Shown: piece by piece, positions 32,472 through 39,895 of the stretch | Position numbering within the stretch: position 1 is the first letter of the stretch | Layout: every line of letters starts with the position of its first letter | Origin: the human T2T-CHM13v2.0 reference genome, Homo sapiens | Direction: 5' to 3' (one strand) | NCBI RefSeq assembly: GCF_009914755.1 | Contig: NC_060941.1 | Length of the DNA: 64,000 nt | Notes under the pieces: generated by a model | The model's input: only the letters and a program-made list of their open reading frames with translations | What the model was told of the DNA's origin: nothing | The model's database searches: none | Position numbers and translations under genes: made by a program

Positions 32472-36806
<4,335 letters not shown>

Positions 36807-37042: not shown

Positions 37043-38280
37043 ACGTCTGCGTTATTAACTTGTTCGGAAGCTTTTTGTGGCAGATTGATTTTAAAAGCCC
37101 CCAAGGAAACAGAGGATTTTATTTAATAGAAATATTGTCAGAATGACATTGAGATTTGGGTTTAGCTTTCAAATCACTGGATACAAGTTGAATCAGGTCT
37201 TTTCTCTGACAGATATTGGAAACATGGTGTGTTGGAGAAATACTCTCCATTGCCTGGCAGGGCCCTTACCTTGGGAGAGGGGGATGATATTTGCCTGGAG
37301 CACCCCGGTGACCCCACCTAGCAGGCCTGACTTTCTAAAGGCAAGGATGTGGGCTTGGTACAGAGAGGTGGCGAAACCTGAATATTAGTATTTTCAAATC
37401 TGATTACTAGTATTTTCAACCGACCTGACTAGGCGCAAATCCATGCTCATTTAAATGAAAGTCTACCTGAAATCATGCCTCACTGCAACCATGCACTTCT
37501 GGGCTTAAGCGATCCTCCTGCCTCAGCCTCCCTGAAGGTCCACCTGCATTTGAATAAGGATGGATGTGCGCCCAGGTATGTCTTTGTGGGTTTCCATCCT
37601 ATAGTTCTGGAGCAAAGGACAAATGGAAGAAAGTTGCTAAAGAAAAGAAGAGCGTTTCTGTGGCTCCTTCAAGAGCAGTTACAGATTTCTGTCCTGAAGC
37701 CAGGAGGGAATATGTGGCCCAGGTCCCACAGTGGAGAGTTGCAATGCTCCCTCTTGGGCATCTCTGTCCTCATTTGGATTCAGGGCTGAAACTTCGGGAT
37801 CAGTTTCACAGAAGAGGTTTCAAGTAGATTTCTTGCAGTCCTGAAAGTCACACTTCTCTGAAATTGGTTTAACACCAATCCAAAACCTATTGGTGTTCCT
37901 GTTACATTTTACAACTCTTCATATGCCACTTAAGAAATGACCTCTCTAGAATTGTGACTCCAGCCTAGGCAACAGTGGGAGACTGTCTCAAAAAAAAAAA
38001 AAAAAAAAAAAAATAGAGTTGAGGATGAGGAGCTCAAGAATAAAAGTGAGATGGGATGGACAGAGAAAAAGCAGGAAAACTAGCGAATGGTATGGTAGAA
38101 GCCAATAGAGAAAGGACTTTCAAGGTGGAGGGAGAGAATTTAAGAGTTGGGACTTCTCTTCCAGCAAGAAGAGGAAGAATGGCATAAGAGGGACTGTGAT
38201 GTAGGCACTATGTCACCATCGTATTTAATCCAAACTATAACTATGCAAGATTACCACTTGACCTTCAAGAAAACTGGGCT

Positions 38281-38590
38281 GGCTGGGCGCAGTGGCTCAC
38301 TCCTGTAATCCCAGCACTTTGGGATGCCGAGGCAGGAAGATAACCTGAGGCCAGGAGTTCGAGACCAGCCTGGCCAACATGGTGAAACCTTGTCTCTTCT
38401 AAAAATTCAAGAATTAGCTGGGCGTGGTGGTGGGCGCCTGTAATCCCAGCTACTCAGGAGGCTGAGGCAGAGGAATCGCCTGAACCTGGGAGGCGAAGGT
38501 TGCAGTGATCCGGGATCGCACTACTGTGCTCCTGCTTGGGCGACAGAGGAAGACTCCGTCTCACAAAAACAAACAAACAAGCAAATATAC
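38281..38590 (+). mobile_element. AluS inside the retrocopy, splitting a MIR-like segment
   Basis: TSD aaaactgggct / aaaactgagct. Confidence 0.92.
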
Positions 38591-38720
38591 AAAACTGAGC
38601 TGAGGAGACAATTCGACAATTCATGCAGTCAATAAGTAGGTTGCAGAGGTTGGAGTACAGTGGCGTGATCGGCTCGCTGCAACCTCCGCCTCCTAGGTTC
38701 AGGCGATTCTCCTGCCTCAG

Positions 38721-39090
38721 TGTCAGGCCTCTCAGCCCAAGCTAAGCATGTGACCTTCGTGTATACATCCAGATGGCCTGAAGCAACTGAAGATCCACAA
38801 AAGAAGTGAAAATAGCCTTAACTGATGACATTCCATCATTGTGATTTGTTTCTGCCCCACCCTAACTGATCAATGTACTTTGTAATCTTCCCCACCCTTA
38901 AGAAGTTTCTTTATAATTCTCCCCACCCTTAAGAATGTACTTTGTGAGATCCACCCCCTGCCTGCAAAACATTCCTCCAAATTCCACCGCCTATCCCAAA
39001 ACCTGTAAGAACTAATGATAATCCACCACACTTCGCTGACTCTTTTCGGACTCAGCCCGCCTGCACCCAGGTGAAATAAACAGCCATGTT

Positions 39091-39091
<1 letters not shown>
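38721..39091 (+). mobile_element. HERV-H LTR7 (U3-R only, U5 absent)
   Basis: Starts tgtcaggcctctcagcccaagctaagc; contains atccagatggcctgaag, duplicated ccccacccttaagaa, and ggactcagcccgcctgcacccaggtgaaataaacagcc. Confidence 0.93.
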
Positions 39092-39166
<75 letters not shown>

Positions 39167-39180
39167 GGAGAGAGAGAGAG
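39092..39180. repeat. (GC)n(CA)n(GA)n compound microsatellite
   Basis: About 30 CA units; occupies the position expected for the retrocopy poly(A) tail. Confidence 0.95.
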
Positions 39181-39279
39181 AAATGACCTCTCTAGAGAAA
39201 GAAGAATCACCATGGTATGGGAGAATGAACCCCTCAGAAATGGTCACAGCTTATTCAAGTCCTAAACCCTTGCTATGGG

Positions 39280-39895
<616 letters not shown>

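What the first reader, a model, noticed from the sequence alone, without database searches (positions are those of the whole stretch)
37933..39196. TSD-flanked retrocopy of an apparently spliced chimeric RNA ending at a HERV-H LTR7 poly(A) site
Seen: a perfect 18-bp direct repeat (agaaatgacctctctaga, 37933-37950 and 39179-39196) brackets 1.23 kb, and the left site reads ctt/aaga like an L1 endonuclease target. The insert is: the last ~35 nt of an Alu plus its A run, L2/MIR-like sequence, an intact AluS, 72 nt of an antisense Alu, then LTR7 from its TG start to about 11 nt past AATAAA (39075), then a (CA)n/(GA)n tract. LTR7 U5 and the rest of the Alu it interrupted are missing. Established: HERV-H LTRs donate poly(A) sites to host transcripts (e.g. 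HHLA2, HHLA3), and L1 retroposes any poly(A) RNA with 5' truncation and TSDs. Inference: this is one 5'-truncated processed copy of the 3' end of a lncRNA or UTR from another locus, not several independent repeats. It would be a fossil of a germline or early-embryo LTR7-terminated transcript, and a route for spreading LTR7 U3 regulatory sequence without retroviral integration.
Basis: partly seen in the sequence, partly recalled or inferred. Interest (0 to 1): 0.85.

Follow-up and report, generated by a model that had tools for sequence, protein, structure and literature searches.

The report
Retrocopy of RNA ending in HERV-H LTR
This 1.2-kb insert in an intron of PITPNC1 is an old L1-made DNA copy of a spliced, unannotated chromosome 1 RNA that ended at the poly(A) site of a HERV-H retroviral LTR, so it is a tidy example of a known process and not a new one.

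Summary
A perfect 18-bp direct repeat (37933-37950, 39179-39196) brackets 1,228 bp. The insert matches one other human locus, chr1:64,996,335-65,015,619, between JAK1 and AK4, with no RefSeq gene there. It matches as four colinear blocks. The three chr1 stretches missing from the insert (761, 79 and 17,292 nt) each start with GT and end with AG, so they are introns. The last block starts at an acceptor inside an antisense Alu and runs into a HERV-H LTR. On chr1 that LTR is a complete 420-bp solo LTR with 5-bp duplications. The chr17 copy stops about 18 nt after AATAAA, at the LTR position where RefSeq ends HHLA2. There is no U5 and no A-tail; a (CA)31/(GA)n tract sits in the tail's place. The target reads TT/AAGA. 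Copy and parent differ at 54 of 1,135 sites (4.8%; non-CpG 3.3%), evenly across blocks. That suggests roughly 15-23 Myr, from recalled rates and with no outgroup test. The LTR is the HHLA2 type, not the ESRG/LINC-ROR or UCA1 type, so it is probably LTR7B. This is a new member of a known kind and of modest interest.

The parts
37930..37932 (+). Target-site bases just left of the duplication. With the first bases of the repeat the site reads TT|AAGAAA, an L1 endonuclease-like site.
   Evidence: sequence. The TT/AAAA motif is as quoted for L1-made HERV-W pseudogenes in PMC5537654 (passages).
37933..37950 (+). Left copy of the 18-bp target-site duplication. Its last 2 nt (GA) are also the 2 nt that precede the copied stretch on chr1, so there is microhomology at the 5' junction.
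37951..38149 (+). Block 1, the 5'-truncated copy of parent exon 1 (chr1:64996335-64996538). 37951-38013 is the end of a sense Alu fragment plus A24; the rest is unique sequence.
   Evidence: 10 of 199 aligned sites differ. On chr1 the block is followed by G|GTAAGT.
38150..38204 (+). Block 2, a copy of parent exon 2 (chr1:64997300-64997354, 55 nt).
   Evidence: 2 of 55 sites differ. On chr1 it is flanked by ..CAG| and |GTAAGT.
38205..38648 (+). Block 3, a copy of parent exon 3 (chr1:64997434-64997873). It includes a full sense Alu (about 38280-38594) that is part of the exon on chr1 too.
   Evidence: 22 of 440 sites differ. On chr1 it is flanked by ..CAG| and |GTGAGG.
38649..38720 (+). Start of block 4: 72 nt of an antisense Alu, beginning exactly at a ..CCAG| acceptor inside that Alu on chr1 (chr1:65015166-65015239).
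   Evidence: 7 of 72 sites differ, the most divergent block.
38721..39091 (+). HERV-H LTR, U3 and R only, copied from the chr1 solo LTR (chr1:65015240 onward). It has three 31-bp U3 repeats at 38872-38958. The U3/R border is near 39035, placed by the RefSeq ESRG 5' end. U5 is absent.
   Evidence: 13 of 369 sites differ from the chr1 LTR. The two share a gap of about 11 nt that 4 of 4 other aligned copies lack.
39075..39080 (+). AATAAA poly(A) signal of the LTR R region.
   Evidence: The RefSeq HHLA2 3' end maps 20 nt after the same hexamer in the homologous LTR, at parent LTR position 382.
39092..39178 (+). Tract where the tail should be: a short GC-dinucleotide run, (CA)31, then (GA)n. There is no pure A run. 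It is probably the LTR's own short CA run plus the former poly(A) tail, turned into a microsatellite.
   Evidence: The chr1 parent has only a short CA run at this point.
39179..39196 (+). Right copy of the 18-bp target-site duplication.

Best explanation
The insert 37951-39178 is a single L1-mediated, 5'-truncated retrocopy of a spliced polyadenylated RNA. That RNA was transcribed from the + strand of chr1:64,996,335 (or further upstream) to about 65,015,619, between JAK1 and AK4.

SHOWN:
- The RNA had at least four exons.
- Its last exon began at an acceptor inside an antisense Alu and read into a HERV-H LTR that had integrated in that Alu.
- Homology to the parent ends at about the LTR position where RefSeq ends HHLA2, roughly 18 nt after AATAAA, so U5 is absent.

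INFERRED:
- The RNA was cleaved and polyadenylated at the LTR's R-region site.
- L1 endonuclease nicked PITPNC1 intron 1 at TT|AAGA.
- The RNA tail primed reverse transcription.
- Copying stopped inside exon 1.
- The 5' end was joined with 2 nt of microhomology, leaving an 18-bp duplication.
- The A-tail, next to the LTR's own short CA run, later turned into the (CA)31/(GA)n tract.

The retroviral piece on chr17 is therefore real HERV-H LTR sequence. It never integrated there as a virus; it arrived as a passenger in a host RNA.

Age: about 15-23 Myr on slow hominoid rates, or about 8-11 Myr on the faster rate often used for LTRs. It is close in age to the integration of a chr15 provirus with the same LTR type.

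It sits in sense orientation in a 154-kb intron. No function is annotated, and it is most likely inert.
For: 1. One parent locus. A whole-genome search with the unique part (271 nt) gives only the window itself and chr1, as three colinear pieces of 94-98% identity. blastn on 60 kb of chr1 places all four blocks on the + strand in order.
2. Splicing. The three chr1 gaps are 761, 79 and 17,292 nt. They read tcg|GTAAGT..CCAG|, tag|GTAAGT..CCAG| and gag|GTGAGG..CCAG|.
3. The parent LTR is a complete 420-bp solo LTR flanked by CTCAG on both sides inside an antisense Alu that continues beyond it.
4. Parent-copy link. The chr1 LTR is the best genomic match to the chr17 LTR at 96%. The next is 92% and the rest of the 40 scored copies are about 90%. 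The two share a gap of about 11 nt absent from 4 of 4 other copies.
5. The 3' end is a used poly(A) site. The last ~420 nt of RefSeq HHLA2 is the same LTR type in sense orientation (90-92% identity). The HHLA2 RefSeq end maps to parent LTR position 382 = chr1:65015621, within about 2-3 nt of where the copy's homology gives out.
6. L1 marks. There is an 18-bp perfect duplication and a TT|AAGA target.
7. One event. Divergence is even across five blocks: 10/199, 2/55, 22/440, 7/72 and 13/369, chi-square p = 0.25.
8. Relative date. The LTR part differs at 13 of 369 sites between parent and copy. The 5' and 3' LTRs of a chr15 provirus of the same type differ at 13 of 382.
Against: - No poly(A) tail is present. 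The tail position holds an 87-nt GC/CA/GA microsatellite, so priming on an A-tail is inferred.
- The antisense-Alu block is more divergent than the rest: 7 of 72 against 47 of 1,063, Fisher p = 0.076.
- RefSeq annotates no gene at the parent locus. The only CpG-island-like stretch in the 60 kb examined is the AK4 promoter, so the parent's promoter and present-day expression are unknown.
- No outgroup genome was available, so the age rests on recalled substitution rates. The 95% interval of the divergence is wide: 3.6-6.2% for all sites and 2.3-4.5% for non-CpG sites.
Confidence: 0.93

Rival explanations
1. The insert is a mosaic of repeats that arrived one by one: an Alu fragment, a full Alu, an antisense Alu hit by a HERV-H integration, then a deletion of U5.
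For: Every piece except 38014-38275 and 38595-38648 is repeat-derived. Such mosaics are common in introns.
Against: The same pieces, including the unique stretches and the exact Alu/LTR junction, lie in the same order on chr1 at 95% identity. One 18-bp duplication brackets the whole. The LTR has no duplication of its own on chr17.
Confidence: 0.01
2. A DNA-level duplication of the chr1 region landed on chr17, followed by three deletions.
For: Identity of about 95% to chr1 is also what an old segmental duplication would show.
Against: The three missing stretches start at GT and end at AG to the base. The copy ends at a poly(A) site. The flanks show an 18-bp duplication and a TT|AAGA site. Nothing of the 19 kb of intron sequence remains.
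Confidence: 0.02
3. Reverse-transcriptase template switching joined several separate RNAs (an L1 chimera), without splicing.
For: L1-made chimeric retrocopies exist (recalled; no paper seen).
Against: All blocks come from one locus, same strand, genomic order, and all three joins fall on GT..AG borders.
Confidence: 0.02
4. The RNA was copied and inserted by a retroviral or LTR-element machinery and not by L1.
For: LTR-mediated retroposition is described in other animals (PMC5131818, abstract in the search listing only). Related HERV-H elements were probably still active at about that time (PMC8912925, section 6).
Against: The duplication is 18 bp, not the 4-6 bp of proviruses (PMC11359688, figure legend). 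There are no LTR ends at the insert borders. The target is TT|AAGA, and the 5' end is truncated with microhomology.
Confidence: 0.02

Closest known systems
Ordinary L1-made processed pseudogenes / retrocopies of Pol II transcripts
   Same: Intron loss at exact splice borders, 5' truncation, an end at a poly(A) site, a target-site duplication and a TT/AAAA-like target.
   Different: The parent is an unannotated non-coding transcript made mostly of exonised repeats. Its terminal exon and poly(A) signal are retroviral. The A-tail has been replaced by a CA/GA microsatellite.
HERV-W processed pseudogenes (L1-mobilised proviral RNAs; PMC5537654, passages)
   Same: The LTR copy has the U3-R form instead of U3-R-U5, sits at the 3' end of the insert, and shows a TT/AAAA-type site and a long duplication. 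The LTR sequence was moved by L1, not by integrase.
   Different: There the whole RNA is proviral (R-U5 ... U3-R). Here the sequence upstream of the LTR is host exons and the LTR is only a passenger. The family is HERV-H, not W. That review calls W the sole HERV group specifically mobilised by L1, and this case does not contradict it because no HERV-H genomic RNA was copied.
HHLA2 (and, by title only, HHLA3): host genes polyadenylated in a HERV-H LTR (Mager et al. 1999, seen only as a reference entry in PMC10046157)
   Same: Same LTR type in sense orientation, and the same poly(A) site to within about 2-3 nt.
   Different: HHLA2 is a living protein-coding gene. Here the LTR-terminated transcript is known only from its retrocopy and from intact splice and poly(A) signals at the parent locus.
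Alu exonisation through an acceptor in an antisense Alu (recalled; no paper seen)
   Same: The last exon of the parent begins at ..CCAG| inside an antisense Alu, just after its T-rich stretch.
   Different: The exonised Alu is cut short by the LTR, which supplies the end of the exon.

Membership tests
L1-mediated processed retrocopy | Colinear with one parent locus but lacking its introns, with joins exactly at GT..AG borders | tested here: met
   three introns of 761, 79 and 17,292 nt, all GT..AG.
L1-mediated processed retrocopy | Flanking target-site duplication of roughly 5-20 bp | tested here: met
   18-bp perfect repeat; 2 matches in the window; 0 of 100 shuffles reach 2.
L1-mediated processed retrocopy | TT/AAAA-like endonuclease site at the target | tested here: met
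   TT|AAGA at 37930-37935, one mismatch to the motif quoted in PMC5537654.
L1-mediated processed retrocopy | 3' end at a poly(A) site shortly after AATAAA | tested here: met
   Homology ends 9-18 nt after the hexamer. The RefSeq HHLA2 end maps to the same LTR position.
L1-mediated processed retrocopy | Poly(A) tail between the copied RNA and the right duplication | tested here: inconclusive
   No A-run. An 87-nt GC/CA/GA microsatellite fills the place. Decay of an A-tail into such a tract is plausible (recalled) but not shown.
HERV-H LTR (LTR7 group) | Full-length similarity to an LTR publicly tied to HERV-H | tested here: met
   90-92% identity over the whole LTR to the 3' end of HHLA2. Both LTR ends also match the ESRG and LINC-ROR 5' LTRs: positions 1-118 at about 80% and 311-408 at 92%. 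HHLA1 3' end: no match.
HERV-H LTR (LTR7 group) | TG..CA ends and a short duplication at a true integration site | tested here: met
   The parent LTR on chr1 starts TG, ends CA and is flanked by CTCAG on both sides. This is not met on chr17, as expected for a retrocopy.
HERV-H LTR (LTR7 group) | Proviral relatives carry a primer-binding site for tRNA-His (PMC6590502, passage) | tested here: inconclusive
   10 of 37 close LTR copies are followed 2 nt later by a primer-binding site. 8 are nearer tRNA-Phe (edit distance 2-4 against 4-7 for His), 1 is tied and 1 is nearer tRNA-His (3 against 7). His or Phe is best in all 10. The other 27 copies have a minimum distance of 6 to any of 21 tRNAs.
LTR7 sensu stricto (ESRG / LINC-ROR type) | Same central U3 | tested here: not met
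   Positions 119-310 give no blastn match to the ESRG or LINC-ROR LTRs, and the MAFFT alignment shows unlike sequence there.
LTR7C (UCA1 type; PMC10962953, passages) | Same central U3 | tested here: not met
   Only positions 1-28, 107-154 (79%) and 311-398 match the UCA1 LTR. One locus stands for a heterogeneous subfamily.
LTR7B (Type II) | Match to the Dfam/Repbase LTR7B model | not testable with these tools
   No repeat library is on hand, and the remasked tables of PMC8912925 are supplements, which are closed. Indirect support: 835 first-look candidates for our central U3 against 2,035 for the ESRG type. This compares with about 750 7b and about 2,200 LTR7 LTR copies computed from the counts in PMC8912925. 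Nearest copies are 93-95% identical, too old for 7y.
HERV-W-type processed pseudogene | Proviral RNA copied whole: R-U5 at the 5' end and internal viral sequence | tested here: not met
   Everything upstream of 38721 is host exons from chr1.

The most novel reading that the evidence does not exclude
The copy may be more than a fossil. Passenger transport in host RNAs could be a recurrent, overlooked way in which HERV-H U3-R promoter/enhancer modules were seeded without integration. Alternatively, this particular U3-R module, which lost its U5 downstream element and so probably most of its terminator strength, may have been kept in PITPNC1 intron 1 as a regulatory element. A related reading is that the chr1 parent is a still-active, unannotated germline or early-embryo lncRNA upstream of AK4.
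Probability: 0.07. Interest if true: 0.55.

Novelty: new member of a known kind. Interest (0 to 1): 0.3.

Why it matters
- It is a clean, fully resolved example in which one insert records several things about an RNA that existed in the ape germline some 15-23 Myr ago: its splice pattern, an Alu-borne acceptor, and its use of a HERV-H LTR as terminator.
- It points to an unannotated multi-exon transcript upstream of AK4. Its splice sites and poly(A) signal are still intact today.
- It shows that what a repeat annotation would list as a truncated HERV-H LTR can be an L1 product and not a retroviral integration. That matters when LTR copies are counted or dated as integrations.
- It gives a dated case of a CA/GA microsatellite arising at a retrocopy tail.
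- None of this changes current understanding of L1, HERV-H or PITPNC1.

Tried and rejected
- Rfam scan of 37500-39700: no family at gathering score.
- HHLA1 3' end as a second named comparator: no match to the LTR. HHLA3 is not in the gene table under that name.
- Search for a promoter of the parent: the only CpG-island-like windows in chr1:64972001-65032000 are at AK4. The parent's start stays unknown.
- Naming the family by primer-binding site was ambiguous: 8 Phe-like, 1 tie, 1 His-like of 10. I recall that His/Phe variation among HERV-H-like elements has been reported (Jern and colleagues), but I saw no such paper. One search returned only the general statement in PMC6590502.
- Subfamily naming from literature: PMC8912925 gives counts, ages and block descriptions but no sequences in the text. 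Its supplementary files 2, 5 and 6 would name both LTR copies directly. Supplements are closed and I did not ask for them.
- Prior description of this retrocopy or of L1-borne HERV-H LTR copies: searches showed none in the 35 rows listed in all (15, 8 and 12; some papers recur), out of 36, 14 and 146 papers that met the terms. Of these I opened only PMC10046157, PMC12228294 and PMC11359688, by passages. The preprint 10.64898/2026.08.31.748411 mentions neither AK4 nor PITPNC1. This is not proof that it is unpublished.
- My own errors, corrected: the first divergence run had two block borders off by one base, and one search replaces it. The scoring used wrongly set end-gap penalties and its 'PBS-like' flag caught nothing, and one search replaces it. 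An earlier count said '9 Phe-like, 1 His-like', and entry 3 and this report give the corrected 8/1/1.
- Not done: a genome-wide count of U3-R-only HERV-H LTRs. The operators allow copies to be fetched only for dating or naming.
Full report
**What is in the window.** The 18-mer AGAAATGACCTCTCTAGA occurs at 37933-37950 and 39179-39196 and nowhere else in the 64-kb window, even with two mismatches allowed. None of 100 dinucleotide-preserving shuffles gave two matches. The two copies bracket 1,228 bp. Reading left to right:
- the last bases of a sense Alu with an A24 run (37951-38013);
- about 260 bp that does not appear among the masked repeats of 100 bases or more in the assembly's mask;
- a full sense Alu (about 38280-38594) and about 55 bp of further unique sequence;
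- 72 nt of an antisense Alu (38649-38720);
- an LTR that starts with TG at 38721 and carries AATAAA at 39075-39080;
- from about 39092, a short GC-dinucleotide run, (CA)31 and (GA)n up to the right repeat.

The pre-insertion site reads ..CTT|AAGAAATG... Rfam finds nothing here. The site lies in the 154-kb first intron of PITPNC1, on the gene's strand, and RefSeq lists no functional element on it.

**The source locus.** A whole-genome search with the unique 271 nt (38014-38284) returned the window itself and one other place. That place is chr1:64,996,403-64,997,512 on the + strand, matched as three separate colinear pieces of 94-98% identity. I fetched 60 kb around it and ran blastn locally. 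The entire insert maps there as four colinear + strand blocks. With borders refined from the sequence:

| Window | chr1 |
|---|---|
| 37951-38149 | 64996335-64996538 |
| 38150-38204 | 64997300-64997354 |
| 38205-38648 | 64997434-64997873 |
| 38649 to about 39098 | 65015166 to about 65015619 |

The three chr1 stretches absent from the insert are 761, 79 and 17,292 nt long. They read tcg|GTAAGT...CCAG|, tag|GTAAGT...CCAG| and gag|GTGAGG...CCAG|. Three out of three joins falling on canonical intron borders is the signature of a spliced RNA. RefSeq has no gene at this chr1 locus; it lies between JAK1 and AK4, and AK4 starts about 10 kb further on.

**The last exon and the virus remnant.** On chr1 the fourth block starts at an acceptor inside an antisense Alu, just after its T-rich stretch. 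After 74 nt of Alu it enters an LTR. That LTR is complete: 420 bp, TG...CA, flanked on both sides by CTCAG, and the interrupted Alu resumes after it. The chr17 copy follows it from the first base to 9-11 nt past AATAAA. Then the microsatellite begins. The chr1 LTR goes on through a short CA run and about 40 nt of U5.

As a named comparator I used HHLA2. Its last ~420 nt in RefSeq are the same LTR type in sense orientation, at 90-92% identity. In an alignment, the RefSeq 3' end of HHLA2 falls on parent LTR position 382 (chr1:65015621). That is within 2-3 nt of the point where the retrocopy's homology is lost. PMC10046157 (passages) states that HHLA1 and HHLA2 take their polyadenylation signal from HERV-H LTRs and lists Mager et al. 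1999 in its references. I did not see that paper. The HHLA1 3' end gave no match.

**Parent and copy.**
- Of 40 LTR copies scored from 2,694 first-look candidates, the chr1 LTR is the closest to the chr17 one at 96%. The next is 92% and the rest are about 90%.
- The pair share a gap of about 11 nt near the LTR start that four of four other aligned copies lack.
- Block by block the two loci differ at 10/199, 2/55, 22/440, 7/72 and 13/369 aligned sites. In all that is 54/1,135 = 4.76% (95% interval 3.6-6.2%; K2P 4.95%). Outside CpG context it is 35/1,065 = 3.29% (2.3-4.5%).
- The blocks are statistically homogeneous (chi-square p = 0.25). The short Alu block is the highest: 7/72 against 47/1,063 elsewhere, Fisher p = 0.076.
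- This fits one event that copied all blocks at once.

**Mechanism.** The long duplication, the TT|AAGA target, the end at a poly(A) site and a 5' end that falls inside an exon, with 2 nt (GA) shared between target and RNA, are the marks of L1 target-primed reverse transcription with 5' truncation. PMC5537654 (passages) lists the same marks for HERV-W processed pseudogenes: U3-R instead of U3-R-U5, a poly(A) tail, a TT/AAAA motif and a 5-15 nt duplication.

The one mark missing here is the A-tail. I infer that the tail, abutting the LTR's own short CA run, evolved into the CA/GA tract. That poly(A) tails seed microsatellites is recalled knowledge, not checked here. In the 37 other LTR copies examined, U5-like sequence follows the site in 36 and proviral leader-like sequence in the one that lacks most of U5. 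This fits the tract having arisen only where the CA run met a tail.

The rivals fail as follows:
- Independent repeat insertions fail on the colinearity.
- DNA duplication followed by three deletions fails on the exact GT..AG joins.
- Template-switch chimeras fail on the single locus and the splice borders.
- Retroviral-type retroposition fails on the 18-bp duplication, against the 4-6 bp of proviruses (PMC11359688, figure legend).

**Family.** The LTR belongs to the HERV-H LTR group. It is colinear over its full length with the HHLA2 LTR. Both of its ends match the 5' LTRs at the RefSeq starts of ESRG and LINC-ROR (positions 1-118 at about 80%, 311-408 at 92%). Those two loci are called HERVH-derived in PMC8912925 (passages). 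Its central U3 (positions 119-310, holding three 31-bp repeats; HHLA2 has four) is unlike that of ESRG and LINC-ROR. It is also unlike the UCA1 LTR, which PMC10962953 (passages) calls LTR7C.

A genome search with our central U3 gave 835 first-look candidates, with nearest copies 93-95% identical. The ESRG-type central U3 gave 2,035, with nearest copies 97-99%. PMC8912925 (passages) counts 748 proviral + 711 solo LTR7, 113 + 524 LTR7b, 24 + 223 LTR7c and 77 + 77 LTR7y. That is about 2,200, 750, 270 and 230 LTR copies. By elimination, copy number and age, LTR7B (the old 'Type II') is the likeliest label. This is an inference, at perhaps two chances in three. A repeat library or that paper's closed supplements would settle it.

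**The tRNA test.** The classical definition of HERV-H is a tRNA-His primer-binding site (PMC6590502, passage). I tested it on relatives, since an LTR has no such site. I fetched the 3' 171 nt of 37 of the 38 other scored copies and one gene for each of 21 tRNA types. Ten of the 37 are followed, 2 nt after the LTR end, by a recognisable primer-binding site. Eight are nearer tRNA-Phe (edit distance 2-4, against 4-7 for His), one is tied and one is nearer tRNA-His (3 against 7). The other 27 have a minimum distance of 6 to any tRNA. So this criterion is inconclusive for the closest relatives, and I note it as an oddity.

As a by-product: 34 of the 37 align to at least 43 of the 49 U5 positions, 2 align to 37, and 1 aligns to 11 while continuing into proviral leader-like sequence. 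None stops at the poly(A) site. The chr17 form is therefore unusual among its close kin.

**Age.**
- With per-lineage rates of 0.9-1.3 x 10^-9 per site per year, the all-site distance gives 19-27 Myr and the non-CpG distance 13-19 Myr. With 2.2 x 10^-9 they give 11 and 8 Myr. The rates are recalled.
- The insert is Alu-rich and 19 of the 54 differences are in CpG context. I therefore lean on the non-CpG figure and on recalled species divergences, and put the event at roughly 15-23 Myr. That is after the split from Old World monkeys and around the gibbon to orangutan splits.
- Independently of any rate, the LTR part differs between parent and copy (13/369) as much as the two LTRs of a chr15 provirus of the same type differ from each other (13/382). 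The retrocopy was therefore made at about the time that provirus integrated.
- PMC8912925 (section 6, read whole) dates most LTR7b insertions to 10-20 Myr, with 22% shared with macaque, and dates the oldest subfamilies to 25-40 Myr.
- The chr1 integration must predate the retrocopy and postdate its host Alu.
- Whether the chr1 element was already a solo LTR or still a provirus when the RNA was made cannot be told from the copy.

**Function.** Nothing points to one. The copy keeps U3, R and the AATAAA, in the same orientation as PITPNC1, but it lost the T/G-rich U5 stretch that follows the cleavage site in the parent. I infer that this weakens it as a terminator and may explain why a sense-oriented LTR is tolerated in an intron. 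A bias against sense LTRs in introns is stated in the abstract of PMC1794541, which I saw only in the search listing. The RefSeq 5' ends of ESRG and LINC-ROR map to LTR positions 315 and 352 (window 39035 and 39070), which places the U3/R border. Whether this LTR type fires from there in any tissue was not tested.

**Verdict.** The case is a well-documented new member of a known kind: an L1-made retrocopy of a non-coding, repeat-built, LTR-terminated transcript. Three literature searches showed no description of this locus or of HERV-H LTRs moved as passengers, which does not prove there is none. No primate outgroups, no repeat library and no expression data were available. Those are the open points.

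Noticed in passing
L040, L042, L044, L049, L052, L053, L055, L056, L059, L070 (3' ends of HERV-H LTR copies elsewhere in the genome): Among the proviral relatives closest to this LTR, the primer-binding site is nearer tRNA-Phe than tRNA-His in 8 of 10, with 1 tie and 1 His-like. The family is named for tRNA-His.
   Followed up: partly
L008, chr1:65023456-65023761 (+): A second, shorter HERV-H LTR-like stretch (88-92% identity to the window's LTR) lies about 1.8 kb upstream of the RefSeq start of AK4 and 8 kb downstream of the parent solo LTR.
   Followed up: no
window 39284-39440: A long polypyrimidine tract of TTTC, CT and CCCT repeats sits about 100 nt right of the insert and runs into an antisense Alu starting near 39440.
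   Followed up: no
window 35318-36517: RefSeq lists a 'P300/CBP strongly-dependent group 1 enhancer' about 1.4 kb left of the insertion site.
   Followed up: no
L073, chr3:111097653-111098097 (HHLA2 3' end): The HHLA2 terminal LTR has four copies of the 31-bp U3 repeat. The window's LTR and its chr1 parent have three.
   Followed up: no
chr3:131579280-131586745 (-), seen: Three LTR copies of this type lie within 7.5 kb on one strand. The lowest one is followed by a His-like primer-binding site, so two elements appear to sit in tandem and share an LTR arrangement.
   Followed up: no
L005, chr1:64996270-64996400: The Alu piece at the start of the parent's first known exon is itself only about the last 105 nt of an Alu plus its A-run. 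The exon's true start lies in non-Alu sequence further upstream or within this fragment.
   Followed up: partly
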